A DNA stretch of 64,000 nt from a virus (lineage: Duplodnaviria; Heunggongvirae; Uroviricota; Caudoviricetes). The DNA lies in IMG/VR virus record IMGVR_UViG_3300028800_000057, one strand, 5' to 3'. The position numbers and the translations under genes are program-made. This document shows, piece by piece, positions 5,659 to 53,797 of this stretch. The notes beneath the pieces are model-generated. The model ran no database searches. It was given only the letters and a program-made list of their open reading frames with translations, and had not been told where the DNA came from. Numbering within the stretch: position 1 is the first letter of the stretch; each line of letters starts with the position of its first letter.

Positions 5659-5679
5659 CGTACACCGAGTTCTCGGGTT

Positions 5680-28765: not shown

Positions 28766-29020
28766 ATGGATTTTGGAGTGGCTTTCGGACTACTACATGA
28801 AGGCAAAGCAATAAAACGAAGTACCTGGGATTGTTGGATCGAGATACGAGATCTACCAGCTCACCGAGAGTCACTACCAGCGGACAGCTTTGAGATTGGT
28901 ACCTTCTTAGTACTAATCCAACCGACTGGTAACTACACACGTTGGACACCATTCGACCAAGACTTGCTAGCTAGGGATTGGGAGGAGACGCCAACTCTAG
29001 CTAAAGACCTCGTGGTGTAA
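28766..29020 (+). CDS. hypothetical protein
   Basis: ORF. Confidence 0.4.
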   Translation: MDFGVAFGLLHEGKAIKRSTWDCWIEIRDLPAHRESLPADSFEIGTFLVLIQPTGNYTRWTPFDQDLLARDWEETPTLAKDLVV

Positions 29021-40481: not shown

Positions 40482-40525
40482 TTTGATTTACATCTTTCCC
40501 CCTGCGAGAGCAGGGTTTAATAAAC

Positions 40526-41173
40526 TCACCCACCAATGGTGGGATCAACAACTATTGTGTACACATCAAGAGCTTCGTTGTATTCGAAGGTTAGAATTGG
40601 AGTGCCTTTGGCAATAGGCTTGTCCGACCTGCATTGGATTTGGTAGCGGTCCCCACTCCTATTCGTGATTTGAGCTACCCCACCAGTACTGTCACAAGCT
40701 AGGGTGACAGTTCCAATACACCCAATGAGGTCTACCTTCTTCACTGAATCGGTTTCAGTGGTGGGCATGAACTTACCCACGGTTCGACTCACGAAGGCAG
40801 TACCAAAGAACATCGTGATGGAGGCAACGGCTACTGAGATAAGAGCGAACCCACTCCACACCTTGATGAGTGCTCCGAGTATCGTGTTCATGCAGATCCC
40901 AGTACCTGCAAATATCAAGGACAGAGACATGAATGAGATGGCAAGTGGTACCCTCCCAAACCCTAGGAAGCCAAGTAACCAACTCCCCTGTCCCTCCCCA
41001 TCCTGATCCCCTTCAGCGTCATGATCCCCGTCTAGGTGAAAGTCACCGTGGATGTCCCCATGAACCCCTACGTCGTGACCAGCACCTGAAAACCCGACTC
41101 CAAGTACGGATAGTATTCCGATTGCCAGCGGGATGTAGAAGATCAGATTATACCACTTGAAAAAGTCAGACAT
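40526..41173 (-). CDS. NfeD-like membrane protein (YqiJ-like) with His-rich segment and C-terminal OB-fold
   Basis: TM segments, GHDVGVHGDIHGDFH, C-terminal PIAKGTPILTFEYNEALDVYTIV. Confidence 0.6.
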   Translation of the reverse strand: MSDFFKWYNLIFYIPLAIGILSVLGVGFSGAGHDVGVHGDIHGDFHLDGDHDAEGDQDGEGQGSWLLGFLGFGRVPLAISFMSLSLIFAGTGICMNTILGALIKVWSGFALISVAVASITMFFGTAFVSRTVGKFMPTTETDSVKKVDLIGCIGTVTLACDSTGGVAQITNRSGDRYQIQCRSDKPIAKGTPILTFEYNEALDVYTIVVDPTIGG

Positions 41174-41240: not shown

Positions 41241-41591
41241 ATGACTAAACTTCAGCCAGGTACCATCTTTGAAGACTCAGAGGGGTATCTCTTTTGGGTC
41301 CTCCTTGTTGACTCAGAGAGGAACCTTGTGTATGTGCAAGATGATCCACTACACGTACTCTCCCCATGTACTCGAGTGATTCGGATCTTCACTATCTGTG
41401 ATGCACTTGAGGATGAGTTCACAGTTCGAGACCCAACCTACGACGAGATGGGCCGGTTCCTTGGGGTGAACCGAACGACGTTCGTCGACTCCCATAACCT
41501 GGACACAATCCCGTCGCCCCCTAACCTAGAGAGCCTCAGACCAACCGCAGAGCATCCTTCAATCCTGGAGACATACTCGCAAAAAGCCTAG
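41241..41591 (+). CDS. hypothetical protein
   Basis: ORF. Confidence 0.4.
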   Translation: MTKLQPGTIFEDSEGYLFWVLLVDSERNLVYVQDDPLHVLSPCTRVIRIFTICDALEDEFTVRDPTYDEMGRFLGVNRTTFVDSHNLDTIPSPPNLESLRPTAEHPSILETYSQKA

Positions 41592-41946
41592 TATTGTACT
41601 CGTGGAATGATGTCGATGGATCAGTGATAACCGACTGATCTGCCCACTTCACAACACCAGCTTCTTTGGAACGCGGCTCCCCCTTCCAAGATCGAATTAG
41701 AAATGCCAAACAAGGGCGAGGCTCCCCACATTCTACTCGGTCCTTGTCTTCGAAGATAGGCTCACAGTGGATTACCTCGATCCCAGTCTCCTCCCATACT
41801 TCCCGTATGATAGCCTCCTCAGCTGTCTCGCCCGGGTCGATCTTCCCACCGGGTAGCCCAAAGTCGTCAGGGTTGTCTTTGCGCGATACTACAAGTATCT
41901 GACCCCTTTTGACAAATAATCCGGTTACCGAGAAAAGTTGGCTCAT
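41536..41946 (-). CDS. NUDIX hydrolase
   Basis: Nudix box GLPGGKIDPGETAEEAIIREVWEETGI. Confidence 0.75.
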   Translation of the reverse strand: MSQLFSVTGLFVKRGQILVVSRKDNPDDFGLPGGKIDPGETAEEAIIREVWEETGIEVIHCEPIFEDKDRVECGEPRPCLAFLIRSWKGEPRSKEAGVVKWADQSVITDPSTSFHEYNTRLFASMSPGLKDALRLV

Positions 41947-41947
41947 A

Positions 41948-42424
41948 TTAGTACAGCGGGCTCTTGTTTAGGTTAATTGTCACGTCTTGGAAGAGTATGG
42001 ATCCATTCTTCACAGAGGCAAAGTAGGCAAGAACCAAGATGTTCCTGTCTAGTCTGCGTAACCAGGCAGCTGCATGTTGCATATCTTCGATCTGTTTATT
42101 CTGGAGAGCTACTTTTCCCATACCACCGAAACGATACTGATAGTACCCGCAACCTGCATGGGCAATCAAGTGGATAGTATTGATCTTGTGCCCTTTGACA
42201 AGAAAAGAGGTTCCTGACCGGCAGGCCTCTGACTCAATAATCGAGGCTCCTACCATGTCCAGGAGCGCGGGTCCGCCGGGCATCGCCATCACATCGTACC
42301 GCTGACAACCGCTGTTCCTGAGTAGCTCAAAGATTGGTTTACTGAACCGGCCATCACTGCACTGAATGACTAGTGTATCAGGGTGATCCTCTTTGAACCC
42401 AGGTAGTGTGGTGAATTCGCTCAT
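41948..42424 (-). CDS. beta-carbonic-anhydrase-like protein (Cys-His-Cys zinc site pattern)
   Basis: IQCSDGRF and IAHAGCGYY resemble CSDSR / HxxCG. Confidence 0.35.
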   Translation of the reverse strand: MSEFTTLPGFKEDHPDTLVIQCSDGRFSKPIFELLRNSGCQRYDVMAMPGGPALLDMVGASIIESEACRSGTSFLVKGHKINTIHLIAHAGCGYYQYRFGGMGKVALQNKQIEDMQHAAAWLRRLDRNILVLAYFASVKNGSILFQDVTINLNKSPLY

Positions 42425-42519
42425 TTTAGTTGTCTTTCCTACTGAAGTTGCGGTACTTATCTACACCGGACCAAAATGTCTAGGACTTTCAATCTTTTCC
42501 TTGAAGATGGTGGCAGGAG

Positions 42520-43119
42520 ATGAAGGGTAGAATATTCGGGCTAACTGGTGGAATAGCTTGTGGAAAGAGCGTTATATCCAGACTATACCAGGATAACGGG
42601 GTCCGCATGGTGGATGCCGACGTGGTGGCTCGAGACGTAGTGGCCCCGGGCACCCCAGCGCTATCCCTCTTAGTGAGTAACTTTGGAAGGGACATTCTAC
42701 TCCCCGACGGGTCTCTTGATCGTCCGAGATTGGGGGCTTTGGTATTTACGGATTCAAAGAAGAGGGCCGTTCTTGACAACACCCTCCGTCGATACTTGAA
42801 TGACGAGATACGACTTCGCCTAAAGCAGGCCGTTGACCAATACCCACTGGTTGGGTTTGAGGCTCCCCTACTCATTGAACACGGGCACCACCTGGAGTTC
42901 AGACCCATAGTCGTTGTAGCAGTATCATCCGAGATACAACTACAACGATTGATGGACAGAGATGGGTTCAACGAGCAAGAGGCGCTCGCGCGCATCAGCT
43001 CTCAGCTTCCAATCAGTGACAAAGTCAAACTTGCAGACTATGTACTGTGGAACGAAGGATCTAAGGACGAACTTTACAAGGAAGCACTACACGTGCTCTC
43101 CAAGATCAAGTTCCCCTAA
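42520..43119 (+). CDS. coaE: dephospho-CoA kinase
   Basis: GLTGGIACGKS P-loop, VDADVVARDVVAPG. Confidence 0.8.
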   Translation: MKGRIFGLTGGIACGKSVISRLYQDNGVRMVDADVVARDVVAPGTPALSLLVSNFGRDILLPDGSLDRPRLGALVFTDSKKRAVLDNTLRRYLNDEIRLRLKQAVDQYPLVGFEAPLLIEHGHHLEFRPIVVVAVSSEIQLQRLMDRDGFNEQEALARISSQLPISDKVKLADYVLWNEGSKDELYKEALHVLSKIKFP

Positions 43120-43120
43120 G

Positions 43121-43390
43121 TCAGTACCCGTCATCCTCACGACGTCGGCGCCCACCACCCCCGCTACTCTTCTTCTTGGGTCCGAAGTCATCCTCGGGAA
43201 AAGATGTGACACCACTGGGTGCTGGCGCTGGTAGACCCTCTTTCTGTGCCTTCTTGATATCCCTGCATGGTTTACATCGGCGGGGATCTGTGAAGTTCAT
43301 TCGAGAGAAGAACTCCTGGTCCTTTGACCTAAATACAAAGTCTTTTCCACAATCGCAGCAATTAAGGGTCTTATCTTCGAAGTCTGACAT
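43121..43390 (-). CDS. zinc-ribbon protein with Gly/Arg-rich tail
   Basis: CCDCG...CKPC. Confidence 0.45.
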   Translation of the reverse strand: MSDFEDKTLNCCDCGKDFVFRSKDQEFFSRMNFTDPRRCKPCRDIKKAQKEGLPAPAPSGVTSFPEDDFGPKKKSSGGGGRRRREDDGY

Positions 43391-43584
43391 GTTTGGGGAA
43401 TGGTTTCGTTGATTCAGTTCGGGTTCACAGGTCAGCCAGAATAGCCGCCTTCTAATCCTACACCGGTCAACCTCACTGAAGGATTATTAGGTGAGAGCAT
43501 GTACCATCATGTAAACCATAAATTATCAATAACCCCTAAAGTGGTGTACTGAAAAGCCGTTACTAGTGTAAGAAGGGAGGGAAC

Positions 43585-43995
43585 ATGACAGGGAACATGC
43601 TTATAGTTGAGGACGAGCCAGTACTCAGGAGTACTTTCACCCGTATTCTCAAGTCATTAGGACTGACTGTTACAGCGGTGGGGTCGGTGACAGAAGCCAA
43701 GAAGGCATTCCAGGGTGGAGTATTTTCTTTGGTGATGTCCGACATGATGCTACCTGACGGGACAGGGCGGGACTTTCACTCTTGGGTGACTGAGAACTTT
43801 CCTGACCACCATCACAGGTTTTTCTTCTGTTCAGGGAGCATGAGTGCGGACCTGAGAGAGTATGTCGACTCGAATGACTGCAAGCTACTTGCAAAGCCAC
43901 TGGATCTCTCAGCCCTAATTGCGGCTATCGGAGAGAATTGTGATGCCCCTCAAACCAATAGAAGATCTGCTAATGCAGATGGGGTTCTGTCCTGA
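43585..43995 (+). CDS. stand-alone response-regulator receiver (REC) domain protein
   Basis: MLIVEDEPVLR ... VMSDMMLPDGTG. Confidence 0.6.
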   Translation: MTGNMLIVEDEPVLRSTFTRILKSLGLTVTAVGSVTEAKKAFQGGVFSLVMSDMMLPDGTGRDFHSWVTENFPDHHHRFFFCSGSMSADLREYVDSNDCKLLAKPLDLSALIAAIGENCDAPQTNRRSANADGVLS

Positions 43996-44386
43996 GGACT
44001 TCGATTCGATTCGAAGGGCGCGTACTCGAGAAGAAGCTACTCAGAAACTTGAGTCCCTGAAAGCACGCTTCAAGAAAGAACTCCGGAAGAAGATACCGGA
44101 CCTTCACCCCGACCGGACCCGTGGGGACCCCAAGAAGACCATCCAATTTCGTCTTCTACTCGACTTTGCGCGCGAGTTGGAAGATACTCAAATCCCTCAG
44201 GTGGTGGTACCCCCGCGTGTCATGGTCTACGAGGTAACCTTCCACAACCCAATCCCTAGGACTCGTAGTAAGAATGCATGGGCGGGGCTCCCAGATGAGA
44301 TTAGGACTAAGGTGACTTCGACCGCTCCAGCAACTACAGTGGCCGGAATGAGACCATCCGGTGTCGTTAGTACTCGTGGAAGATAG
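43919..44386 (+). CDS. hypothetical protein
   Basis: ORF. Confidence 0.35.
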   Translation: MRLSERIVMPLKPIEDLLMQMGFCPEDFDSIRRARTREEATQKLESLKARFKKELRKKIPDLHPDRTRGDPKKTIQFRLLLDFARELEDTQIPQVVVPPRVMVYEVTFHNPIPRTRSKNAWAGLPDEIRTKVTSTAPATTVAGMRPSGVVSTRGR

Positions 44387-44756
44387 CCCGCAACGACCGG
44401 TGGCTCCCATACCGCTTCCGGACTTGTCCCATTTGACCCAGGCAGAGCTTTCTGCCCTTCGTGGGTACCTGACTACAAAAAGCAAGGAGGCCCGGAAGGA
44501 AGCCACCAAGGTAATCGGGAAGGATCATAAGGTTCGAGATCTCTGGCTGAAGACCCTCGGCCTCAAGAGCGATGCAACCCCAGAAGAGCGGGCTGCCGTC
44601 GAGACCCCGTTCTACGAAGAAATTCTACGTCAACCCGAGGCTTTCGTGTTATATGCTTGGGCCAACGGGCTCGCTACTCTGGATAGGCATGTATGGGAAA
44701 CAATGCTAGACCGATCAAAGGTGACGACAGAAAAGAAACCACTATCGAAACGTTGA
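44361..44756 (+). CDS. hypothetical protein
   Basis: ORF. Confidence 0.35.
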   Translation: MSLVLVEDSPQRPVAPIPLPDLSHLTQAELSALRGYLTTKSKEARKEATKVIGKDHKVRDLWLKTLGLKSDATPEERAAVETPFYEEILRQPEAFVLYAWANGLATLDRHVWETMLDRSKVTTEKKPLSKR

Positions 44757-45142
44757 AGAGGCTTGGGCCCAGCGCTTCAGACCTTACCTTGCTCCAGATC
44801 TTGGATCAAGAGAGGAATCTTTTCTCCTTGGCTAGCAAGGAGATCATGCATTTCCTTGTCGACGAGCTAATTCGTCGAAAGGTCTACCCGGAGGATACGC
44901 CTGAAGGTAACCCGAACTCCGTGTTCACTATGGTCGAGGGCTGGGGCGCCTACTGGCATGTCTGGAAGGGGACCTTGGAGTGCCCTCACTGCAAAGCTGA
45001 CCTACGAGATCACAAGATGGGTCCTCCTGGTCTCAGGCAAATTGGAGTAGTAGACAGGGGCTTGGACAAGATCACCCACTGGGTTTGCCCTGATTGCAAG
45101 GGGACGTGGGGTCGTGAGTTCACGCTAACGAAACAGGGATAG
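44693..45142 (+). CDS. hypothetical zinc-binding protein
   Basis: CPHCK...CPDCKG. Confidence 0.4.
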   Translation: MGNNARPIKGDDRKETTIETLKRLGPSASDLTLLQILDQERNLFSLASKEIMHFLVDELIRRKVYPEDTPEGNPNSVFTMVEGWGAYWHVWKGTLECPHCKADLRDHKMGPPGLRQIGVVDRGLDKITHWVCPDCKGTWGREFTLTKQG

Positions 45143-45578
45143 TGTACACGGTCTTCCCGGCTTTTCTTGCGTAGGTGATGGCTTGCCCAGTACCTGACTT
45201 GAAGTTGCCGTTGAAGAACGCTACTACAAAGGTCCCTCGGTCCACTAGGTACTCATTCCGCTTCTTGTAGCTCAAGTAGTGATCGTCCTCAGTAATTGGT
45301 TCCTGAAGTTCGATGACCAAGTCTGCGCGTCGAGTCCAGTTCCTAGTCGAGAGGGGTTGTCTATCGACGGTGTCCGGAACCACTACGATGAGTTTAGGCC
45401 TGATACCTTCTCGGTAGTGAAGGGCTGCCTTGAGAAATTCTGTGTCCACCCCACTTGCACCACCAAGGTAGACTTCGTCAATACTTAGGTTCATAAGCAA
45501 GGTAGCGGCTGCAGTCCACACCCGTTTCGTACTCTTGGGGCCAATAGTACGGTGACCCGTGATAGCAGCCGATTTCAT
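45120..45578 (-). CDS. YpsA-like SLOG-family (DUF1273) nucleotide-binding protein
   Basis: ITGHR, GGASGVDTEF, VVVPDTV, YKKRNEYLVDRGT, FFNG..GTGQAITYARKAGKTVY parallel YpsA motifs. Confidence 0.65.
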   Translation of the reverse strand: MKSAAITGHRTIGPKSTKRVWTAAATLLMNLSIDEVYLGGASGVDTEFLKAALHYREGIRPKLIVVVPDTVDRQPLSTRNWTRRADLVIELQEPITEDDHYLSYKKRNEYLVDRGTFVVAFFNGNFKSGTGQAITYARKAGKTVYTIPVSLA

Positions 45579-46075
45579 AGGTCGTAGATGAAGACTGGAA
45601 GATCACCCATTGTCTCTTGGATCAGAGGTTCTACCTGATCCCACTTTCCACCAGCGAGTCCACACCCAATCCTCGGGGCGTGAATAGTGGAGCCCTTCGA
45701 GCGAGCGCTCTCTGCTACCTTGGTCAAGCAAGTTCGAAGTGCATCGTATCGAAGCGGTGATGGACCTGGGTCCTCTTCAACCGCGTGCTGTAGACTTCCA
45801 GCCCTCCCATAACCAACCTGGGCAATCATGTTGGCGACCCAGAGACCAGGACCGACCAAAGCCCAGCCAACATTACCGAGGGCGAAGTCACCAGATCTAG
45901 TGTTGTGCCCTTCCTTGTACCACTTCCGGTACTGCCCTTCCGGTTCGGTCCAGCGCTTGGATAACGCCAACACGAAGCCCTTTCCCCAACCGCCCCTATC
46001 ATTGCAAATATGCATAATGATTCTAGATTCACTCGGTTGTGGACGAGTAGCGTCACCCTGCAAGTAAGTGATCAA
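45575..46075 (-). CDS. macro-domain protein (ADP-ribose binding/hydrolase fold)
   Basis: GDAT...IIMHICNDRGGWGKG resembles macro GD..D..AIVNAAN..L..GGGV. Confidence 0.55.
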   Translation of the reverse strand: MITYLQGDATRPQPSESRIIMHICNDRGGWGKGFVLALSKRWTEPEGQYRKWYKEGHNTRSGDFALGNVGWALVGPGLWVANMIAQVGYGRAGSLQHAVEEDPGPSPLRYDALRTCLTKVAESARSKGSTIHAPRIGCGLAGGKWDQVEPLIQETMGDLPVFIYDL

Positions 46076-46159
46076 TGCGCCTCCGATCTCTTGGTACTCT
46101 ACGTTTCTATTCCGCGCAAGCTATCAACGTCAAGCCGAGTAACTTTCTATAACCTATGA

Positions 46160-46591
46160 CTATTTTTTCTCTGGGTGGCATAAGTTACGAATGACTCTCT
46201 CGTGTCGGGTGGGGACGCACTCGCGAGGGGACCCAGTCTTACTCTTCAGGTGTGGCATCTCTCGGAGCAGCTGGTCAAGTACTTCTTGGTGGCCTGCCTC
46301 GGCCTTCTCCCATGTCGAATAACGCCACTGGGCCTGATCCATAGTTCCTCCGAATACCATGGTCTCAAATAGGAGTGGCTCGGCTCCGTCCATCCAGCGG
46401 TGATTGATGCCCATGAGGAAAGTAGTTGATACAAGGATCTCCTCGGTCCCAGAAAGATACTCATCCTTTCGTACTCTTCGAACTCCATGATCAGGATCTT
46501 GTACAATCCACTCAAGGCATTCGATAGAGCTGACGGGGACCGCCGTCTTTCCCTCGAGTTTGAAGAAACGACACATCGAGGGAAGATACAC
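46160..46591 (-). CDS. hypothetical protein with C-terminal TRHERVIRNL tail
   Basis: ORF; tail family. Confidence 0.45.
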   Translation of the reverse strand: MYLPSMCRFFKLEGKTAVPVSSIECLEWIVQDPDHGVRRVRKDEYLSGTEEILVSTTFLMGINHRWMDGAEPLLFETMVFGGTMDQAQWRYSTWEKAEAGHQEVLDQLLREMPHLKSKTGSPRECVPTRHERVIRNLCHPEKK

Positions 46592-46721
46592 CGTTGACAG
46601 AACTAGGACAACTGATTATCCTGGGTGGCATGTCGAAGTATACGTAGATTTCTTCAGCTCGCGGCCCGCCGCCTCATGTTCGTTTTTCAAATAACTTTGA
46701 AACGACTAGGAGGTTAGTGCG

Positions 46722-47189
46722 ATGCATACCGTGATAAAGAAACTACGAACAGATTTAGTCAAGAGTATCCAAGACACTTTGGAGATCAGTAGAAAGATCC
46801 AAAGCCTCAAGTGGAAAGATGGATCGTTACCCGAGGTGCAGCGTCTTCGCTCCGCCAAGAACGAGCAGGGGCAGAGGGTCAACGGAAGTCGATCCCTAAA
46901 GCCTTACCTTCGCCCCGAGACCGGCGATGAGCGAAACCGTCTCTGGACGAAGAAAAGGAGCCTTGGCTTCACGACTCGTGATTACTTGCTCCTTTGGGCT
47001 ATGCTTCGAGGGCGCGCGTACAAGAGTGTTGAAGCTAAATGCAAAGAGGATAACTATCCGAGTACCTACGGGATGGCCTGTATCCTCGAAGGGTACTTTT
47101 CGGACACCAGGTGTCCGATTGGAGCTGACGAGATCAACGAGTGGGTCAAGGGTGGTGCTGCTCCCCAACTCATTGAGGTGGCTGCCTAG
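46722..47189 (+). CDS. hypothetical protein
   Basis: ORF. Confidence 0.4.
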   Translation: MHTVIKKLRTDLVKSIQDTLEISRKIQSLKWKDGSLPEVQRLRSAKNEQGQRVNGSRSLKPYLRPETGDERNRLWTKKRSLGFTTRDYLLLWAMLRGRAYKSVEAKCKEDNYPSTYGMACILEGYFSDTRCPIGADEINEWVKGGAAPQLIEVAA

Positions 47190-47659
47190 TGTCCAGCATC
47201 CAAGTAGAGCTAGACAAGCTCAACAAGGAAGCCGTCGAGAAGACGGCTGAGGCAGAGAGGCTAGTACGGCTATCTGCTATGTTTCCAGATCTACAAAAGC
47301 ATGTGGGTCGATGGAACAAGGTGGCCTACTACTCAGTATCAGTGAACTCGAAAGTTGAAAGGTTTGACCTTCGACATAACTGCGGGTGTTGCTCTGACAG
47401 TCCTTTGGAGGTTTGGCCTTACTTGGAAACTCCGGAGGGTAATGTATACTCTGACCCACCGAGCTTTCAAGTTGGGGAAAAGCATTACCTAGGGGGTGAC
47501 AGGCCCTACCCTAAGTGGAGGGAGAAGCTCCAAGCGGCTGGGATCCCTGAGGTGGTTATCGGGGCAATCTCGATGCACTTCCAAGTGGACAAAGATGCTC
47601 GGGTTCAGGCTGCCTACGAGGATGATGAGGTTCCTGAAGACCCTGATCCACTCGTCTGA
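47189..47659 (+). CDS. hypothetical protein
   Basis: ORF. Confidence 0.4.
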   Translation: MSSIQVELDKLNKEAVEKTAEAERLVRLSAMFPDLQKHVGRWNKVAYYSVSVNSKVERFDLRHNCGCCSDSPLEVWPYLETPEGNVYSDPPSFQVGEKHYLGGDRPYPKWREKLQAAGIPEVVIGAISMHFQVDKDARVQAAYEDDEVPEDPDPLV

Positions 47660-47815
47660 TCTTCGTGCTTGGCTGTGATCTCAGGCTTACCCAAGCACGA
47701 ATCACACACGTGTACTCCGGTTCGACTCGCTTCAATCACGCTCGGATGAAGTGGGTCGAACCAGGAGGCCCAATGACACTTCGAGCATTCAAGTTCAACG
47801 GTCCCTCTCGGACGG

Positions 47816-48160
47816 ATGTTGTCTTCCATGGAAACTACTACCCCGCAGAAACTTTACCTTGTAACTCGTGAGGATCTATCACCTGCTCAACAAGCTGTCC
47901 AGGCTGCACATGCCCTGACTGAGTACCTAATGCAGCATAAAGAAGGTGCTTTGAGTTGGCACTCAAGCTCAAATACCCTGGCTTTACTGTCAGTTCCGAC
48001 TGAGGAGAGTTTGAGCGCCTTGGCCCACAAAGCTAGACGTAAAGGGTTTATGATCTCGGAGTTTAGAGAGCCAGACAGACTTGACGAATTGACTGCGGTG
48101 GCCTTCGAACCGAAAGCCAAACCACTTTTGCGTAACATTCAATTGGCTCTTAGGCTATAG
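47816..48160 (+). CDS. PTH2-like (peptidyl-tRNA hydrolase type 2 fold) protein
   Basis: KLYLVTREDLSPAQQAVQAAHA resembles Pth2 K.v.VVR.DL.M.KGK.AAQ..HA. Confidence 0.4.
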   Translation: MLSSMETTTPQKLYLVTREDLSPAQQAVQAAHALTEYLMQHKEGALSWHSSSNTLALLSVPTEESLSALAHKARRKGFMISEFREPDRLDELTAVAFEPKAKPLLRNIQLALRL

Positions 48161-48358
48161 TTGAGTATGACGGTGACCAATTGCAAACAGAGTCTCTACT
48201 TCCCTGTGGATATGTACCACGAGGTTCGTGAGGAGGCTGTACGCCTTGATCGATCCGTCTCGTGGGTTGTCGTTCAAGCCTGGAGGATAGCGAGATCAAA
48301 GATCAAGAATCTTCCCGGTGTAACTGATCCACCTGATAGTGATACCAAGCTTCCGTAG
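48161..48358 (+). CDS. hypothetical small protein; its stop codon lies inside the tRNA 5' arm
   Basis: ORF. Confidence 0.3.
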   Translation: MSMTVTNCKQSLYFPVDMYHEVREEAVRLDRSVSWVVVQAWRIARSKIKNLPGVTDPPDSDTKLP

Positions 48359-48420
48359 CTCAGCGGTAGAGCAGTGAATTCTAACCTCATTGGTCGTGGG
48401 TTCGAACCCCTCCGGAAGCG
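48349..48420 (+). tRNA. tRNA-like cloverleaf with anticodon CUA (amber-suppressor type); 7-bp acceptor, D-arm GCTC/GAGC, T-loop TTCGAAC; one mismatch each in anticodon and T stems
   Basis: manual fold: loop TT-CTA-AC with U33 and A37. Confidence 0.55.
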
Positions 48421-48421
48421 C

Positions 48422-49342
48422 TCAGAGTTTCCACATGACCGTTGTATTTGGGCCTACCCCAATATGGTTATCTAAGTTGTGCAGGTGATCCATTCTCTCC
48501 AGTGAGAGCTTGAACTTCTTAGGGATAGCTTCGAACCCATAGTAGGAGCCGGCCATTGCTCCGGCGATAGCAGCTGTCGTGTCTGTGTCCCCACCCGCTC
48601 TGATGGCGGCCATGACAGCATCCTCGTATGAATCAGTGAGCATGAAGGCGGCTGCCGCTGAGGGTACCGTTTGGGTTACATGAGACTTGGTTCCAAAGAC
48701 ACTGAATGCCTCCGGTAGGGAAAGTCGGTCTTTGGTCTTTCCGAGTATGATGAGCTTGTCTTTGATCTTGGAGTTGCTCAGAAAATCCAAGGTAGCTTCA
48801 ATAAGATCAAACTTTGGTACCCCCTGCCAGATGAAAGCAACCATCAAGGCAACTGCTGCTGAACCCTCTCGAGCTTCCACTGACTTATGGGTGATCCTAG
48901 ACTCCATCCTTGCAAACTCGGATACCGTCAGCGGATCATCATGGTAAAATGCTCCCATGGGGGCCGCCCGCATTGCGGTACCATTGCCTTCGGCGCCATC
49001 AATCCCACTATCTGTCCAGCGAAAACCCTCCTTCAAGCGTTGAAGTGAGGCTTTGGTGGTCTTACCCATCCCCCGAGTATCCCCGGCGATGTACCAGTGG
49101 AGATACCGGTTGGCGACATCGCGCGGGTAAAAACCCCCACAGATGTACAGGGATTCTGTAAGCATCTTCGCCATCATAGTATCATCAGTCCATTGGCCAG
49201 GGGTGAGCTGATGATACTCACTTGGCAAGTAGTCTCCCCTCCAACTTAGGAGCATAGGATCGCTCGCAAGCCGTGTTTCGAAGGGCATTCCAAGAGCATC
49301 TGCCACAGCCTCACCTACTAGAGGTGCCGGATCACTAACCAT
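48422..49342 (-). CDS. ADP-ribosylglycohydrolase (ARH/DraG family)
   Basis: VADALGMPFE ... QWTDDTMM ... GGDTDTTAAIAGA. Confidence 0.8.
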   Translation of the reverse strand: MVSDPAPLVGEAVADALGMPFETRLASDPMLLSWRGDYLPSEYHQLTPGQWTDDTMMAKMLTESLYICGGFYPRDVANRYLHWYIAGDTRGMGKTTKASLQRLKEGFRWTDSGIDGAEGNGTAMRAAPMGAFYHDDPLTVSEFARMESRITHKSVEAREGSAAVALMVAFIWQGVPKFDLIEATLDFLSNSKIKDKLIILGKTKDRLSLPEAFSVFGTKSHVTQTVPSAAAAFMLTDSYEDAVMAAIRAGGDTDTTAAIAGAMAGSYYGFEAIPKKFKLSLERMDHLHNLDNHIGVGPNTTVMWKL

Positions 49343-49348
49343 GTATTG

Positions 49349-49425
49349 TCACTACACCAAGGGGACATGAAGTCCCCTCAGAGACTTCATGTCGATTTCA
49401 CTTGAAGATTAAAACTAGCTGGTGT
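49349..49425. ncRNA. candidate structured RNA between divergent ARH and Ro60 genes: 11-bp hairpin GACATGAAGTC/GACTTCATGTC enclosed by outer pairing CTACACCA/TGGTGTAG
   Basis: direct inspection of nested complementarity; function inferred from Ro60 adjacency. Confidence 0.3.
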
Positions 49426-49480
49426 AGATAGGTGAGTTCCTCATATCGAGGGGCAACTTGTCCAGTCCGTTAGGACTGGA

Positions 49481-51118
49481 ATGCTAGAAATGGAGGCCAC
49501 CGTGGCCAAGAATAATATCGTCGGTTTGAACCCGAATGCGAGCAATTATGCTGGTGGGGATGCGTATGCTATGGCGCCGGAGAATGCCCTGGCACAACTA
49601 GCTGTAACTGGTTGTTTTAACAGTACCTTCTATACAACTGCTGAGTCACAGGCAGAGCAGGTTCTCGACCTAGTCGGGAAGTCTGATCCTGAGTTCGTGG
49701 CTAAGCTAGCGGTTTATGCCCATACGACTGGGTACATGAAGGACATGCCGGCGGCCCTCCTGGCCAACTTAGCTGTTCGTAACCCTGAGCTCTGCGTGAA
49801 GGTCTTCCCGCGCGTAGTCAGCAACGGTAAGATGTTGCGCAACTTTGCTCAGATCATTCGGTCTGGGAAGTTTGGTAAGAGGAACGCTTCCTCGCACCGG
49901 CTGCGAAAGGTCATTGCCCAGTGGTTCGACTCTAGGACTGACGACCAAATATTCTTCAACTCGGTCGGTAACAACCCGACCTTGGGTGACGTGGTGAAGG
50001 TGGCTCGGGTGCGCCCGACGTCTAGGACCAGGTCTGCTCTCTATGCTCACCTGGCGGGCAAGGATAAGGGTTTCTTCGACGGTGAGGACTTCGTTACGGC
50101 TGAGTCTCTCCCGGCGCTAGTAGCGGCTTATGAAGCCTTCCGGGTGTCCCCGGTGGGTGAGGTTCCTAATGCACCCTTCGAGATGCTATTGGGACTTAAG
50201 TTGAGTCTTGATGATTGGAAGGCGGTAGCCGCCAAGGCAACTTGGCCTCAGACCTTCAAGAATCTCAATACGTTCGCTCGTCACGGAGTTCTTGCGGACC
50301 CTGAGATGGTCAACTTGATTGCAGCCAAACTACATAACAAGGATCTGATCGAAAAGGCTCACGTCTTTCCATACCAGATCATGATGACCTACAAGGCGGT
50401 TACGGATCGGAGCATCACCTTCCGTGGTTCAAAGCCCAATGATGACGACTTTGAACAGATGCCGAACAAGATCATTGTAGCTCTTGAGGAAGCTCTTGAA
50501 CTAGCTACAATGAACGTTCCTGCCTTCGATGGGCAGAACGTAGTCATCTGTGTCGACGTGTCTGGGTCGATGTCCACAAGCCCTGTAACTGGTTCTCGAA
50601 AGGGTTCCACTACAAAGGTCATGAGCATCGATGTGGGTTCGTTGATTGGTTCGTCCATCCTCAGAAGGAACCCGCGGGCTAGACTCATCGCCTTCGAGGG
50701 TCGAGTAGTCCCGGTCAAGGTGCATGCTGGCAACAGTGTCATGCAGAATACCAAGATCTTAGCCTCCGTTGGTGGTGGTTCAACTGATTGTGCTAAACCT
50801 TTGGCTTTGCTCAATGCAGAGGCCGCCAAGGTTGACGTGGTCATCTTCGTCTCGGATTACGAGTCTTGGACTGGTAATCATGGGATCACAGGGGCGACTC
50901 AAATGCAAGGGCAATGGGACTTACTGAAGTGTAGGAACCCCAATGCCAAGTTGGTCTGCTTGGATCTCGCACCTCACAACACGAATCAGGTTGTAAGCCG
51001 ATCTGATACTTTTGGTATCGGTGGGTTCTCTGATCAGGTTTTCAGCATGATCAGTGATTTTGTCACTGGTTCCGGCAAGAACCAGTGGGTAGACATCATC
51101 AATCAAGTTGAACTCTGA
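49481..51118 (+). CDS. Ro60/Rsr-like TROVE-domain protein with C-terminal vWA (MIDAS DVSGSM)
   Basis: NYAGGDAYAM..LAQLAVTGCFNSTFYT ... KVFPRVVSNGKMLRNF TROVE-like; VVICVDVSGSMS vWA. Confidence 0.7.
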   Translation: MLEMEATVAKNNIVGLNPNASNYAGGDAYAMAPENALAQLAVTGCFNSTFYTTAESQAEQVLDLVGKSDPEFVAKLAVYAHTTGYMKDMPAALLANLAVRNPELCVKVFPRVVSNGKMLRNFAQIIRSGKFGKRNASSHRLRKVIAQWFDSRTDDQIFFNSVGNNPTLGDVVKVARVRPTSRTRSALYAHLAGKDKGFFDGEDFVTAESLPALVAAYEAFRVSPVGEVPNAPFEMLLGLKLSLDDWKAVAAKATWPQTFKNLNTFARHGVLADPEMVNLIAAKLHNKDLIEKAHVFPYQIMMTYKAVTDRSITFRGSKPNDDDFEQMPNKIIVALEEALELATMNVPAFDGQNVVICVDVSGSMSTSPVTGSRKGSTTKVMSIDVGSLIGSSILRRNPRARLIAFEGRVVPVKVHAGNSVMQNTKILASVGGGSTDCAKPLALLNAEAAKVDVVIFVSDYESWTGNHGITGATQMQGQWDLLKCRNPNAKLVCLDLAPHNTNQVVSRSDTFGIGGFSDQVFSMISDFVTGSGKNQWVDIINQVEL

Positions 51119-51958: not shown

Positions 51959-53797
51959 CTATCGAAGTGGGCCATCCCCTGCAAGACCGCTCGGGATACC
52001 TGCCACACTAATGGTAGCATCCACTGTCCCTGAGGAGATCAGGATGCGCGAGATATTGTTGCTACCCTTGTTGTTCACATACATGTGGTCCGCACCGTCC
52101 CAGGCAACCTCGTCTGGAGTTGTCCCGACACTGATAGTTGAGTCAACTGTCCCTGAAGAGATCTCTATGAGTGATACAGTTCCGTCACCGGAATTAGTGA
52201 CATACATGTGGTCCGCCCCATCCCACGCTATTTTATTCGGGCTACTCCCTACGAAGATCATAGCATCGACATTGTTACTCGTCAGACTGATTCGGATTAC
52301 TTGATTGGATAACGAGCTAACCACATACATGTGGTCCGCACCGTCCCAAGCAACTCCCTTAAAGTCGTTTAATAGAGGGATAGTCAGGTTGACTGTTGCG
52401 GTTGTAGTGTCCACGCTAGACACTGTTCCATCGCTACTATTGACCGCAAACATGTGGGACACACCGTCCCAAGCGATAGCACGAGGGGAGTTCCCAAGTG
52501 TAATTGCGGATCCAAGTAGAGCGCCTGTTGCGATCTGGATCCTATGAGCAGTGTTCCCACCACGACCAACAACATACATGTATGAGCCACCATCCCATTC
52601 AATTCCGAATGGGTTAGTTTCAGCACTGCTTATGGTAGTAGTACTCAGATCTGCTATTGCTATCCTGGTAACTGTGTTGTCGTTCTGACTAGCGACATAC
52701 ATGTAGAGTCCACCGTCCCATGCAATATCAACCGGTTCACTACCAACACTAATGAGATCACTTACTACTCCAGAAGAGATTAGAATCCTCCTAGCTACGT
52801 TTGTACTATCCATGGATACGTACATGTAGAGGCCGCCATCCCAAGCAACCCCAGTTGGAAATCCTGACCCCAGGGAGATGGTCGCATCGACAGCTCCGCT
52901 CGAGATCAGGATTCTAGATACAGTGTTGGTGCCATTGTTAGTGACATACATGTGGGCCCCTCCGTCCCACGCAACCCTATATGGATTAGAACCAACAGGG
53001 ATGATCAGATCAACAACTCCTGTTGAGATCAGGATCCTGTAGACTGAACCATCCTGGTCCACTGTGTACATGTGGGCCCCACCATCCCACGCGATATCAA
53101 TTGGAGATATCCCAACAGGGATGACTAAGTCAATAACTCCAGTAGAAGCAATGATTCTAGAGACCGTCCCTTGCCCAAAGTTTGCTGTGTAGATGTGACC
53201 AGACCCGTCTCGTGCAACGCCCCATGAATTAGGGGCATTCATCAGATGTACTGACGAATAACTAGGCCAAGTATCTACTGATACTTCCAGAATCTTGTTC
53301 GTGTTTGGGTTAGTATTGTTGGCAGTTACCCACATATTGAAGCTGCCATCCCAAGCCACCTTGTTGGGAACACCGTCACTACTACTGAAGTTGATGTTAG
53401 AGTCTACAACCCCCGAGACAATTGCAATTCGAGTAATCGTGTTTTCATTGTCAACCACGTACACGAAGCTAGTATCCCTAGCTAGCGCAATCGGTTGAGA
53501 TCCAATGTTAGTAGTACTATCTAGTGCAAGACTGGATATCCTAACTCTTTGAACTGAATCCCCATCAACCTCAGCCAAGTACATATAGGATCCACCATCC
53601 CATACTATCGCTTGGGGGTTGTCACCAGCGGTAACGGTGCTGTCAATAGCCCCGGTAGCTATGTTGACGCGCGGTACTAGATTTGCTGAGCCAAGAGGGA
53701 CCCACATGTGCCCCCCAATAAGTGGGCGCTTGCCTAAGGCCCACTCGGGGGCTCGTGCAATGGTTCTCATTAGAGTGCCCTCACGTACTCGAACCAA
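51959..53797 (-). CDS. YVTN/NHL-type beta-propeller repeat protein (about 14 x AWDG..HMYV repeats), likely receptor-binding/tail-associated
   Basis: regular about 40-aa repeats. Confidence 0.6.
   Translation of the reverse strand: MVRVREGTLMRTIARAPEWALGKRPLIGGHMWVPLGSANLVPRVNIATGAIDSTVTAGDNPQAIVWDGGSYMYLAEVDGDSVQRVRISSLALDSTTNIGSQPIALARDTSFVYVVDNENTITRIAIVSGVVDSNINFSSSDGVPNKVAWDGSFNMWVTANNTNPNTNKILEVSVDTWPSYSSVHLMNAPNSWGVARDGSGHIYTANFGQGTVSRIIASTGVIDLVIPVGISPIDIAWDGGAHMYTVDQDGSVYRILISTGVVDLIIPVGSNPYRVAWDGGAHMYVTNNGTNTVSRILISSGAVDATISLGSGFPTGVAWDGGLYMYVSMDSTNVARRILISSGVVSDLISVGSEPVDIAWDGGLYMYVASQNDNTVTRIAIADLSTTTISSAETNPFGIEWDGGSYMYVVGRGGNTAHRIQIATGALLGSAITLGNSPRAIAWDGVSHMFAVNSSDGTVSSVDTTTATVNLTIPLLNDFKGVAWDGADHMYVVSSLSNQVIRISLTSNNVDAMIFVGSSPNKIAWDGADHMYVTNSGDGTVSLIEISSGTVDSTISVGTTPDEVAWDGADHMYVNNKGSNNISRILISSGTVDATISVAGIPSGLAGDGPLR

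What the first reader, a model, noticed from the sequence alone, without database searches (positions are those of the whole stretch)
41536..51118. ADP-ribose-centred gene neighbourhood: NUDIX, macro domain, YpsA-like SLOG, ADP-ribosylglycohydrolase, next to a Ro60-like gene and tRNA
NUDIX (41536..41946), a macro domain and YpsA/SLOG forming an overlapping minus operon (45120..46075), and ARH (48422..49342) all act on ADP-ribose, NAD-derived signals or ADP-ribosylated substrates. In a phage this is a plausible counter-defence kit. It could reverse DarT-like DNA ADP-ribosylation, sequester or hydrolyse cADPR-type immune signals as Thoeris sponges do, or degrade NAD-derived nucleotides. The SLOG-macro fusion operon in particular resembles a ligand sponge plus eraser.
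Basis: inference. Interest (0 to 1): 0.75.

Follow-up and report, generated by a model that had tools for sequence, protein, structure and literature searches.

The report
Megaphage ADP-ribose eraser and tRNA island
A giant soil phage carries, side by side, enzymes that strip ADP-ribose marks from DNA, RNA or proteins and a small tRNA-care module; this kind of island is already known from jumbo phages, but one of its genes turns out to be a near-constant partner of phage suppressor tRNAs, which appears not to have been described.

Summary
The genes are real and sit at the stated coordinates, in an accessory region of an uncultured phage of about 443 kb. The macro gene (45575-46075) belongs to the SCO6735/Bt_1257 subclass, and the residues needed for removing ADP-ribose from thymidine and uracil are conserved. 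Its stop codon overlaps the start (ATGA) of a YpsA/DprA-like SLOG gene. The ARH is a DraG/Tri1-like enzyme with its metal-site motifs present. The NUDIX looks like MutT, not like an ADP-ribose pyrophosphatase, so it is not shown to belong. Macro, SLOG and ARH stay together in related megaphages. Macro also pairs with ARH, and separately with a YpsA SLOG, in unrelated phages. Macro/SLOG/Nudix neighbourhoods in jumbo phages were already described and interpreted as counter-defence (Iyer et al. 2021, 2022). This is therefore a new member of a known kind. No function was tested.

The unexpected result concerns the PTH2-fold gene (47816-48160) next to the tRNA(CUA). In 57 of 65 non-redundant phage loci that carry this family, a suppressor tRNA lies nearby, usually just downstream. 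Control loci held 136 tRNAs and no suppressor. The same family also recurs beside SCO6735-type macro and NadM genes.

The parts
45575..46075 (-). Stand-alone macrodomain of the SCO6735/Bt_1257 (ALC1-like) subclass. It starts at TTG 46075 behind a GGAGG Shine-Dalgarno. The automated 146-aa gene call cuts off the N-terminus, including N25.
   Evidence: phmmer against PDB: 5e3b 4.7e-43, 2fg1 5.6e-41. Residue mapping gives N25, Q86, G139. phrog_335 1.7e-30. Start context. 146-aa gene call.
45120..45578 (-). YpsA/DprA-like SLOG (Rossmannoid) protein, translationally coupled to the macro gene through an ATGA overlap.
   Evidence: AF2 pLDDT 94. Foldseek: YpsA 1.1e-7, DprA 2.7e-7, ShosA, MCP, LOG. G43-x-D45 and the S128/G129/T130/G131 motif are invariant or nearly invariant. 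Overlap read directly.
46160..46576 (-). Small conserved protein (orf143) upstream of the macro gene on the same strand. Function unknown; probably not specific to ADP-ribose.
48422..49342 (-). ADP-ribosylglycohydrolase (ARH/ARG), DraG/Tri1-like, with the metal-site motifs present.
   Evidence: Pfam 1.6e-66. NCBIfam: Tri1 8e-31, DraG 5e-27, both below the equivalog cut-offs. PDB: MJ1187 1e-33. Motifs DALGMPFE 15-22, WTDDT 51-55, GGDTDT 250-255.
47816..48160 (+). PTH2-fold protein (phrog_1866) in which the catalytic Lys of Pth2 is replaced by Gln. A recurrent partner of suppressor tRNAs, and of SCO6735-type macro and NadM genes.
   Evidence: Pfam PTH2 3.6e-8. phrog_1866 1.2e-18. Alignments to 1rzw and 1q7s. 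Family alignment. Linkage statistics.
48161..48358 (+). Small TIGR04563-family protein lying between the PTH2-fold gene and the tRNA. I read its sequence as ribbon-helix-helix-like; no tool tested this. Its 3' end overlaps the tRNA gene by 10 nt.
   Evidence: NCBIfam TIGR04563 3.1e-24, above the cut-off. Coordinates.
48349..48421 (+). tRNA with anticodon CUA (amber suppressor), abutting the 3' end of the ARH gene.
   Evidence: ARAGORN. Rfam tRNA 60.6 bits. tRNA(CUA) is kept at this position in relatives, with diverged sequences.
49481..51118 (+). Ro60/Rsr-like TROVE + vWA protein. The likely true start is GTG 49502, behind GGAGG.
   Evidence: Pfam vWA_Ro60 6.6e-16, TROVE 1.7e-6. phrog_850 4e-36. 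Upstream alignment.
49343..49501 (+). Divergent ARH/Ro60 intergenic region. It holds a sigma70-like promoter (TTGAAG-N17-TAGATA) followed by two hairpins whose stems differ between relatives while remaining paired. No Y RNA was recognised.
   Evidence: Fold z-score -5.2. Alignment with relatives. No Rfam Y RNA.
41536..41946 (-). Minimal MutT-like NUDIX hydrolase lying directly (1 nt) downstream of a Pro_CA_2 gene. Peripheral; not shown to act on ADP-ribose.
   Evidence: Pfam 2.6e-17. NCBIfam ranks MutT far above ADPR diphosphatase. PDB matches.
28766..29020 (+). Tad2-like (Thoeris anti-defence 2-like) gene, outside the finding but in the same window.
   Evidence: Pfam PF11195 9.9e-11, above the cut-off.

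Best explanation
This is an accessory island of an uncultured soil megaphage of about 443 kb. It combines two kinds of function. (A) Enzymes that remove ADP-ribose from macromolecules. One is a SCO6735-type macrodomain, predicted to hydrolyse ADP-ribose from thymidine in ssDNA (the DarT2 product), from uracil in ssRNA, and possibly from acidic protein residues. It is co-translated with a YpsA/DprA-like SLOG protein that binds a nucleotide ligand or ssDNA. The other is a DraG/Tri1-like metal-dependent ARH, predicted to take ADP-ribose off proteins, arginine being the best-supported target. (B) A tRNA-care module: a PTH2-fold protein, a small TIGR04563-family protein, an amber-suppressor tRNA and Ro60. 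The most likely role of (A) is counter-defence, that is, erasing ADP-ribose marks that host ADP-ribosyltransferase toxins place on phage DNA, RNA or proteins. Shown here: gene identities, folds, conserved catalytic residues, genetic linkage. Inferred: substrates, the counter-defence role, any cooperation between the genes. The NUDIX is probably a MutT-like nucleotide pyrophosphatase and not part of the module.
For: Macro: 4.7e-43 to SCO6735, catalytic equivalents conserved. SCO6735 removes T-ADPr from DNA and rescues cells from DarT (PMC9411070), and it removes U-ADPr from ssRNA (PMC13036486). A jumbo-phage macrodomain, AdfM, counters DarTG2 (PMC13309987). SLOG: fold and GxD motif (PMC6459960); ATGA coupling to macro. 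A YpsA SLOG gene overlaps the 5' end of a macro gene in unrelated phages L032/33. ARH: strong HMM match and the conserved motifs DALGMPFE, WTDDT and GGDTDT, which I read as the binuclear metal site. ARH is followed 29 nt later by a SCO6735-type macro gene in the distant 371-kb phage L014. The block is kept in relatives of 407-512 kb. A Tad2-like gene lies in the same window. The phage nature of the contig rests on P22 Ant-N, two DNA methyltransferases, many ORFans, and IMG/VR relatives of 370-530 kb. Published surveys report that Macro, SLOG and Nudix co-occur and neighbour each other in jumbo phages (PMC9503650, PMC7824862).
Against: No DarT, other ART, Thoeris or similar gene is known for the unidentified host. 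The block is dispensable in parts: L007 lacks the macro gene and L009 lacks Ro60. Among 68 non-redundant macro-seeded loci, ARH lies within 8 kb in only 4, which look like relatives of the window phage, so ARH-macro linkage is not general. The SLOG could serve recombination as a DprA-like ssDNA binder (PMC7824862). Iyer et al. argue that phage Macro and SLOG domains mainly process soluble ADPr derivatives rather than macromolecular adducts (PMC9503650).
Confidence: 0.5

Rival explanations
1. The module acts on soluble signals or metabolites. Macro, SLOG and ARH would degrade or sequester low-molecular-weight NAD-derived molecules made by host immunity (cADPR isomers of Thoeris, ADPr-1''P, ADPr>P, OAADPr) rather than macromolecular adducts. 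The SLOG would be the ligand-binding or N-glycosidase component and the macro would process the ribose-linked moiety.
For: This is the published prediction for phage Macro/SLOG/Nudix neighbourhoods (PMC9503650). Among the weaker PDB matches of the macro are an 'ADP-ribose 1''-phosphate phosphatase' entry (6lfu, 1e-9) and O-acetyl-ADP-ribose deacetylase 1 entries (4j5q, E 0.011). The family is labelled 'phosphatase' in PHROGs. A Tad2-like gene in the window shows pressure from cADPR-type signalling. In other phages SCO6735-type macro genes neighbour NAMPT, NadM and Sir2.
Against: By a wide margin the closest characterised homolog (SCO6735) is a nucleic-acid and protein de-ADP-ribosylase (PMC9411070, PMC13036486). 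The SLOG fold is nearest to YpsA and DprA, and no ThsA SLOG sensor is among the 50 listed hits. Iyer et al. argue that ARG domains prefer macromolecular conjugates (PMC9503650).
Confidence: 0.2
2. The whole stretch 45.1-51.1 kb is a protection island for RNA and the translation apparatus, serving tRNA and RNA integrity. The macro would remove ADP-ribose from RNA bases. The ARH would act on RNA phosphate ends or ribosomal and translation proteins. The PTH2-fold protein would act on the acyl or peptidyl ester of the co-encoded suppressor tRNA. Ro60 would handle misfolded or damaged RNAs.
For: SCO6735 is highly active on U-ADPr ssRNA (PMC13036486). [quoted passage not shown] The PTH2-fold family is tightly linked to suppressor tRNAs, to tRNA_bind proteins, to SCO6735-type macro (24 of 80 loci) and to Ro60 (8 of 80). 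Phage Ro60 genes sit in or beside tRNA arrays. In the Streptomyces phage Annadreamy a Sir2-macro pair lies among tRNAs, a polynucleotide kinase and a phosphoesterase.
Against: No RNA ligase, RtcB, KptA or Y RNA was found in the window. ARH is linked to the PTH2-fold gene only in the window's own clade (5 of 80 loci). No host RNA ADP-ribosyltransferase is known for this system.
Confidence: 0.15
3. The erasers regulate the phage's own enzymes. They would reverse or limit ADP-ribosylation carried out by the phage's own ADP-ribosyltransferases or sirtuins (as in T4 Alt/ModA/ModB, or Sir2-macro pairs), acting as timing or self-protection devices.
For: More than 40% of jumbo phages encode ARTs (PMC9503650). 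A Sir2 gene directly precedes a SCO6735-type macro gene in Annadreamy, and SIR2 is a recurrent neighbour.
Against: No ART or Sir2 was detected in about 58 kb of the window with precomputed or direct Pfam hits. Many ORFans remain, and the rest of the 443-kb genome was not seen.
Confidence: 0.08
4. There is no functional unit. The genes would be independent accessory genes that happen to collect in a variable region of a giant genome, and synteny in relatives would reflect shared ancestry only.
For: About 12 unrelated genes are interspersed and the strands are mixed. The scans give no clear operon signals beyond chance. Individual members are lost in relatives. Macro-ARH linkage is mostly confined to one clade.
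Against: There is ATGA translational coupling of macro and SLOG. Separate adjacencies occur in other phages: ARH-macro in L014 and YpsA-macro in L032/33. Macro, SLOG and Nudix are reported to co-occur more often than expected by chance in DNA viruses (PMC9503650).
Confidence: 0.07

Closest known systems
SCO6735 (Streptomyces coelicolor) / Bt_1257 subclass of ALC1-like macrodomains
   Same: 50-52% identity over the whole domain, E 4.7e-43. Gln occupies the position of the catalytic Lys of DarG and TARG1. The Asn and PB-loop Gly are conserved. The 'mobile loop' is extended.
   Different: Phage-encoded. The mobile loop carries an insertion about 9-10 residues longer. The gene is coupled to a SLOG gene. 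Activity is untested.
AdfM (PhiKZ gp104), the chimallivirus anti-DarT2 macrodomain (PMC13309987)
   Same: A stand-alone macrodomain of a very large phage, with no adjacent toxin. Predicted here, and shown for AdfM, to remove DarT2 ADP-ribose from DNA.
   Different: AdfM is DarG2-like, with a catalytic Lys (K78). The window protein is SCO6735-like, with Gln. No phage-nucleus context is known here.
DarG antitoxin of DarTG2
   Same: ALC1-like macro fold. Weak HMM hits to DarG models (NCBIfam 1.8e-5, PADLOC 4.8e-6).
   Different: No catalytic Lys, no C-terminal DarT-binding domain (166 aa in total), and no Pfam or PHROG annotation pointing to a DarT among the neighbouring genes.
ADPr-processing neighbourhoods of jumbo phages: Macro, SLOG, NADAR, Nudix (Iyer, Burroughs, Anantharaman, Aravind 2021 and 2022; PMC7824862, PMC9503650)
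   Same: A large phage, a YpsA-clade SLOG next to a macro gene, a Nudix nearby, and RNA-repair or tRNA genes in the same region. The counter-defence interpretation is already proposed there.
   Different: An ARG/ARH is included (reported in only about 5% of jumbo phages). No NADAR was found. The macro is specifically SCO6735-type. A PTH2-fold gene, a suppressor tRNA and Ro60 are interleaved; neither survey links these to the ADPr genes.
YpsA/YoqJ (DUF1273) and DprA, SLOG superfamily
   Same: Same fold (TM 0.72-0.78). GxD signature and glycine-rich phosphate-binding loop.
   Different: Only 17-25% identity to the structures. Homologs closer than about 44% identity are confined to this megaphage clade. 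It lacks the extra domains of DprA.
DraG / Tri1 / MJ1187-type ADP-ribosylhydrolases
   Same: Full-length PF03747 match, with the conserved DraG-type motifs (DALGMPFE, WTDDT, GGDTDT) present.
   Different: Scores far below the equivalog cut-offs (107 against 490 for Tri1, 95 against 337 for DraG). No partner transferase (DraT or Tre1) lies nearby.
Archaeal/eukaryotic peptidyl-tRNA hydrolase Pth2, and the 'peptidyl-tRNA hydrolase' of Bixzunavirus mycobacteriophages
   Same: The Pfam PTH2 model matches above its cut-off. 43% identical to Dandelion gp164, which is likewise followed by tRNA-Sup(cta).
   Different: The position aligned to the Lys that I recall as catalytic in Pth2 is an invariant Gln, and the DAGRT segment is replaced by (R/K/L)EPD. 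Canonical Pth2 chemistry is therefore doubtful.
Bacterial Rsr (Ro60) with Y RNA
   Same: TROVE + vWA architecture with a DVSGSMS MIDAS-like motif. tRNA genes lie nearby.
   Different: No Y RNA was detected. No rtcB or rtcA lies adjacent.

Membership tests
SCO6735/Bt_1257 subclass of ALC1-like macrodomains | Full-length sequence similarity to SCO6735 and Bt_1257, well above that to other macro classes | tested here: met
   5e3b 4.7e-43, 2fg1 5.6e-41, 2afc 7e-41. By contrast ALC1 7e-10, TARG1 0.011, DarG (5m3i) 0.008.
SCO6735/Bt_1257 subclass of ALC1-like macrodomains | Gln in place of the catalytic Lys (Q85), plus N27 and G128 (PMC9411070) | tested here: met
   Q86, N25 and G139 align to these positions. 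They are invariant in the phage and bacterial alignment.
SCO6735/Bt_1257 subclass of ALC1-like macrodomains | Extended mobile loop with basic residues | tested here: met
   A longer loop with R91 at the K89 position, plus an extra insertion of about 9-10 residues.
SCO6735/Bt_1257 subclass of ALC1-like macrodomains | Hydrolysis of T-ADPr DNA and U-ADPr RNA | not testable with these tools
   Needs an enzyme assay.
DarG antitoxin (DarTG2) | Catalytic Lys80, a C-terminal DarT-binding domain, an adjacent darT gene | tested here: not met
   Gln at the Lys position. The protein is only 166 aa. None of the annotated neighbours resembles DarT; several neighbours have no annotation at all. NCBIfam DarG scores 24 bits against a cut-off of 250.
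YpsA-clade SLOG | SLOG Rossmannoid fold | tested here: met
   AF2 pLDDT 94. Foldseek: YpsA 2nx2 1.1e-7, DprA, MCP, LOG.
YpsA-clade SLOG | GxD/E substrate-binding signature (PMC6459960) | tested here: met
   G43-V-D45 is invariant in 18 homologs.
YpsA-clade SLOG | Match to the Pfam YpsA model (PF06908) | tested here: not met
   Only DNA_processg_A at 24 bits, below its cut-off. The macro-linked SLOG of L032 does match YpsA at 6e-11.
Thoeris-type cADPR sponge or sensor (ThsA SLOG, Tad1/Tad2-like) | Structural or sequence similarity to a known cADPR-binding SLOG or sponge; ligand binding | tested here: inconclusive
   No ThsA structure among the 50 Foldseek hits listed. No PADLOC hit. Binding cannot be tested here.
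ADP-ribosylglycohydrolase (PF03747; DraG/ARH) | Full-length HMM match above the curated cut-off | tested here: met
   225 bits against a cut-off of 26.2.
ADP-ribosylglycohydrolase (PF03747; DraG/ARH) | Binuclear metal-site motifs (N-terminal D/E, the DD(T) pair, C-terminal DxDT) | tested here: met
   DALGMPFE 15-22, WTDDT 51-55, GGDTDT 250-255. Their assignment to the metal site rests on established knowledge of DraG and ARH3.
ADP-ribose pyrophosphatase type of NUDIX | Nudix box plus best similarity to ADPRase families (NudF, YffH/AdpP, NadM) | tested here: not met
   The Nudix box is present. The best matches are MutT-type (1.7e-14 to 1.6e-13), against ADPR diphosphatase at 9e-4 and YffH at 3e-3. 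The PDB top hits are MutT, 8-oxo-dGTPase and RppH.
Ro60/Rsr RNP | TROVE + vWA protein | tested here: met
   vWA_Ro60 6.6e-16, TROVE 1.7e-6, phrog_850 4e-36.
Ro60/Rsr RNP | Adjacent Y RNA partner | tested here: inconclusive
   No Rfam Y RNA at the gathering threshold or at E<=5, nor in 20 related phage loci. The structured upstream region looks like a promoter plus 5'UTR.
Pth2 peptidyl-tRNA hydrolase | PTH2 HMM match | tested here: met
   34 bits against a cut-off of 23.
Pth2 peptidyl-tRNA hydrolase | Catalytic Lys (K18 in S. solfataricus numbering, from my own knowledge) and the DAGRT Asp/Thr segment | tested here: not met
   The Lys position holds an invariant Gln (Q26). The DAGRT segment is replaced by (R/K/L)EPD.

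The most novel reading that the evidence does not exclude
The PTH2-fold protein (phrog_1866) and a suppressor tRNA form a two-gene module that I could not find described. The module is widespread in large phages, including cultured Bixzunavirus mycobacteriophages. Its repeated placement beside SCO6735-type macrodomains, NadM/NAMPT genes, tRNA-binding proteins and Ro60 suggests a tRNA-centred counter-defence or translation-control system. In that system the protein would control the acylation or peptidyl state of the suppressor tRNA, for example as a dedicated deacylase or editing factor, or as a switch that times read-through. ADP-ribose erasers would protect the same RNA pool.
Probability: 0.2. 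Interest if true: 0.8.

Novelty: new member of a known kind. Interest (0 to 1): 0.5.

Why it matters
For the finding as given: it adds an uncultured-megaphage example of ADP-ribose erasers to a class of counter-defence islands that is already predicted. It also makes one sharp, cheap and testable prediction: a SCO6735-type, Gln-based phage macrodomain should neutralise DarT2-type DNA ADP-ribosylation or uracil RNA ADP-ribosylation. For the side result: suppressor tRNAs in phages that use the standard code have no known purpose (noted for XacN1, PMC5852040). A protein partner that accompanies them in nearly 9 of 10 loci, and that also exists in genetically tractable mycobacteriophages, gives that open question an experimental handle.

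Tried and rejected
1. TAG recoding of the window. TAG ends 22 of 67 long ORFs, and removing it as a stop does not lengthen ORFs more than removing TGA or TAA does. The region uses the standard code.

2. Close cultured relatives. Megablast against 50,697 phage records found nothing.

3. A Y RNA next to Ro60. There is no Rfam hit at the gathering threshold or at E<=5. The strongly folding intergenic region 49343-49480 (z -5.2) aligns with relatives as a promoter-like TTGAAG-N17-TAGATA followed by two 5'UTR hairpins, so I do not call it a Y RNA.

4. The tRNA(CUA) as the tRNA-like partner of Ro60. Rejected. It persists where Ro60 is absent (L009), and it follows the PTH2-fold gene rather than Ro60.

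6. The NUDIX as an ADP-ribose pyrophosphatase. Not supported.

7. The macro as a DarG antitoxin. It fails the defining features.

8. Promoter and terminator scans to define operons. The counts do not exceed those of shuffled sequence.

9. PADLOC. Only weak DarG and PDC-S07 hits.

10. The PTH2-tRNA link in two uncultured phages of about 630-640 kb that carry 33%-identical homologs. No tRNA lies within 4 kb, so the link does not extend to remote homologs.

Full report
**Context.** The window belongs to a very large uncultured phage. Its exact proteins recur on metagenome contigs of up to 443 kb. Homologous loci lie on IMG/VR contigs of 370-530 kb. The window carries a P22 Ant-N antirepressor domain, two DNA methyltransferases, translation-related genes (eIF-1A-like, peptide deformylase) and many ORFans. 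Megablast finds no cultured relative. The region uses the standard genetic code: TAG ends 22 of 67 long ORFs.

**Checking the observation.**
- The NUDIX (41536-41946) has a canonical Nudix box.
- The ARH (48422-49342) matches PF03747 at 1.6e-66 and keeps the motifs DALGMPFE, WTDDT and GGDTDT.
- Ro60 (49481-51118) has TROVE and Ro60-type vWA domains.
- The tRNA (48349-48421) is a good tRNA (60.6 bits) with anticodon CUA.
- The 'macro' call is weak against Pfam (E 0.004). It is nevertheless unambiguous against solved structures: 4.7e-43 to SCO6735 (5e3b) and about 1e-41 to Bt_1257.
- The 'SLOG' call is weak by sequence (DprA model, 24 bits). An AlphaFold model with pLDDT 94 has YpsA, DprA, ShosA, Moco-carrier and LOG proteins as its best Foldseek matches. 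The YpsA-clade GxD signature is invariant (PMC6459960).
- Macro and SLOG are separate genes whose stop and start overlap in ATGA.
- The macro gene starts at TTG 46075 behind GGAGG. The automated 146-aa gene call removes the N-terminus and residue N25.

**What does not hold.** The NUDIX resembles MutT-type nucleoside-triphosphate pyrophosphatases. It scores 2.7e-14 against MutT and 9e-4 against ADP-ribose diphosphatase, and its best PDB matches are MutT, 8-oxo-dGTPase and RppH. It lies directly (1 nt) downstream of a Pro_CA_2 gene, close to a CoaE gene on the opposite strand. Nothing ties it to ADP-ribose. About a dozen unrelated genes on both strands lie between the named genes, so this is an island and not an operon.

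**What the macrodomain is.** SCO6735 removes ADP-ribose from DarT-modified thymidine in ssDNA and rescues cells from DarT. It uses Gln85, Asn27 and Gly128 instead of the Lys of DarG and TARG1 (PMC9411070). It is also highly active on uracil-ADP-ribosylated ssRNA (PMC13036486). The window protein keeps Q86, N25 and G139 at these positions and has an even longer mobile loop. It fails the tests for DarG itself: no Lys, no DarT-binding domain, no neighbouring darT. A jumbo-phage macrodomain of the DarG2 type, AdfM, was recently shown to counter DarTG2 (PMC13309987).

**Is the cluster a unit?**
- In three related megaphages (45-63% protein identity) the block CoaE ... SLOG, macro, orf143 ... PTH2, small ORF, tRNA(CUA), ARH, Ro60 is largely kept. 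One relative lacks the macro gene, one lacks Ro60, and one has a 2.2-kb insertion between ARH and Ro60. Synteny at this distance may only reflect ancestry.
- Stronger evidence comes from rearranged cases. In a distant 371-kb phage (L014) the ARH is followed 29 nt later by a SCO6735-type macro gene. In L032/33 a bona fide YpsA-family SLOG (PF06908, 6e-11) overlaps the 5' end of the macro gene, the reverse of the order in the window.
- The linkage is not general. Of 68 non-redundant macro-seeded viral loci, only four have an ARH within 8 kb.
- The annotated direct neighbours of SCO6735-type macro genes are most often PTH2, NAMPT, DSPc, HATPase_c_3 and SIR2.
- Iyer et al. already reported that Macro, SLOG, NADAR and Nudix co-occur and form neighbourhoods in jumbo phages, and interpreted them as counter-defence against NAD-derived molecules. 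They found ARG domains in only about 5% of jumbo phages (PMC9503650, PMC7824862).
- The finding is therefore a new member of a known kind. A Tad2-like gene at 28766-29020 (9.9e-11) fits a phage under pressure from NAD-based immunity.

**Most likely mechanism.** I favour erasure of macromolecular ADP-ribosylation (confidence 0.5).
- The macro would act on T-ADPr DNA or U-ADPr RNA.
- The co-translated SLOG would serve as a nucleotide- or ssDNA-binding partner.
- The ARH would act on protein adducts.
- The rivals are degradation or sponging of soluble signals, an RNA and translation protection island, regulation of the phage's own transferases, and coincidence. They are set out with their tests in the rivals section.
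- Only identities, folds, catalytic residues and linkage are shown. Substrates and roles are inferred.

**The tRNA side of the island.**
- No Y RNA was found near Ro60. The strongly folding region upstream of Ro60 aligns with relatives as a promoter-like element plus two hairpins whose stems differ between relatives while remaining paired. The Ro60 start is probably GTG 49502.
- Across 52 phage loci, Ro60 genes often sit inside or beside tRNA arrays, with up to 34 tRNAs in 6 kb.

**The unexpected result: the PTH2-fold gene (47816-48160).**
- It matches the Pfam PTH2 model (3.6e-8). The position aligned to the Lys that I recall as catalytic in Pth2 is an invariant Gln, and the DAGRT segment reads (R/K/L)EPD.
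- I seeded on this family in IMG/VR. Of 65 non-redundant loci, 57 hold a suppressor-type tRNA: 38 CUA, 5 UUA and 14 UCA-type, several of the last with 6- or 8-nt anticodon loops.
- In 51 of these loci the tRNA lies within 2 kb downstream (median distance 525 nt). It is often the only tRNA in 12 kb.
- Control loci seeded on the macro gene and lacking the PTH2-fold gene hold 136 tRNAs and no suppressor.
- Other collections give the same picture. Six of eight genome-collection loci have a tRNA(CUA) within 1 kb. In the cultured Mycobacterium phage Dandelion, gp164 'peptidyl-tRNA hydrolase' is followed by tRNA-Sup(cta).
- The annotated neighbours of the family are led by tRNA_bind and HD_4 proteins.
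- The same family lies within 6 kb of a SCO6735-type macro gene in 24 of 80 loci, of NadM in 18, and of Ro60 in 8.
- Two remote homologs (33% identity) in phages of about 630-640 kb have no tRNA nearby.
- I found no paper in the searchable library that links Pth2 with suppressor tRNAs. Jumbo-phage genome papers list both features separately, and the XacN1 paper notes that its suppressor tRNAs have no identified targets (PMC5852040).

**Verdict.**
The genes are real and macro, SLOG and ARH are linked, but the NUDIX is not an ADP-ribose enzyme on present evidence.
Reversal of DarT-type marks is plausible and now has specific support; the 'kit' and 'sponge' ideas are unproven.
- Novelty: a new member of a known kind.
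- The link between the PTH2-fold gene and suppressor tRNAs is the item that deserves follow-up.

Noticed in passing
window 47816-48421; loci L159-L238, L239, L241-L248: The PTH2-fold protein family (phrog_1866, with Gln at the position of the Pth2 catalytic Lys) is linked almost without exception to suppressor tRNAs. 57 of 65 non-redundant viral loci carry one (CUA, UUA or UCA), mostly directly downstream. Control loci held 136 tRNAs and no suppressor. The same arrangement occurs in Mycobacterium phage Dandelion (gp164 followed by tRNA-Sup(cta)). I found no description of this in the searchable literature.
   Followed up: yes
L177, L187, L190, L195, L196, L203, L205, L209, L211, L216, L223 and others (downstream of the PTH2-fold gene): In phages with the gene order NadM ... 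macro, PTH2-fold gene, the downstream tRNAs have 8-nt (AUUUCAAC) or 6-nt anticodon loops that contain UCA. ARAGORN labels them '?(Glu|SeC)'. They could be opal or +1 frameshift suppressors, or non-decoding tRNA-like molecules.
   Followed up: partly
L103-L154 (52 phage Ro60 loci): Phage Ro60/TROVE genes often lie inside or directly beside tRNA arrays on the same strand (up to 34 tRNAs in 6 kb, and tmRNA in two loci). Often a tRNA or tRNA-like gene lies 40-250 nt downstream of Ro60, including Rfam tRNA hits of 124-129 nt with long inserts (L114, L111) that might be YrlA-like RNAs.
   Followed up: partly
window 49343-49501: The ARH/Ro60 intergenic region folds very stably (z -5.2). It holds a promoter-like TTGAAG-N17-TAGATA followed by two hairpins conserved with compensating changes in relatives. 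The Ro60 start is probably GTG 49502 behind GGAGG, not ATG 49481.
   Followed up: partly
window 28766-29020 (+): A Tad2-like (Thoeris anti-defence 2-like, PF11195, 9.9e-11) gene lies next to a UDG gene and a papain-like peptidase gene.
   Followed up: partly
window 45575-46075 (-): Automated gene calls on the public contigs start the macro gene at an internal ATG (146 aa). This drops 20 N-terminal residues that align to SCO6735, and the predicted catalytic N25 becomes residue 5.
   Followed up: yes
L008 6133-7458; L014 6220-7659; macro-neighbour survey: HATPase_c_3 (MORC/Hsp90-like ATPase) and dual-specificity phosphatase genes recur next to ARH or macro genes in other megaphages. In L008 a 441-aa gene, with a GHKL-ATPase-like motif by eye (not scanned), is inserted between Ro60 and ARH.
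   Followed up: no
window 42520-43119 (+); L191, L193, L211, L212 and others: A dephospho-CoA kinase (CoaE, 2e-50) lies in the island. CoaE genes also recur within 6 kb of the PTH2-fold gene in 7 of 80 loci, sometimes directly adjacent.
   Followed up: partly
window 38544-41173 (-): A flotillin/Band-7-like 645-aa protein with a long Ala/Glu/Lys-rich coiled region lies next to a YqiJ/NfeD-like membrane protein. This is a host-like membrane-microdomain pair inside a phage.
   Followed up: no
window 5134-6459 (-); 12.4-12.7 kb; 55.5-56.7 kb: Other accessory genes: CYTH domain plus radical SAM; eIF-1A-like and Phe-tRNA-synthetase N-terminal-like small proteins; peptide deformylase and dCTP deaminase.
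   Followed up: no
window 51959-55176 (-): A 612-aa protein made of about 12 highly regular beta-propeller-like repeats ('AWDGxxxMYV') is followed by a 468-aa ORFan. Both are conserved at 57-75% identity in relatives and may be structural or adhesin proteins.
   Followed up: no
L240 (Streptomyces phage Annadreamy 81881-83025): In a cultured phage, a Sir2 gene meets a SCO6735-type macro gene (annotated 'hypothetical') with a 1-nt overlap. They lie among tRNAs, a polynucleotide kinase and a phosphoesterase. This is a tractable system for testing the macro subclass.
   Followed up: no
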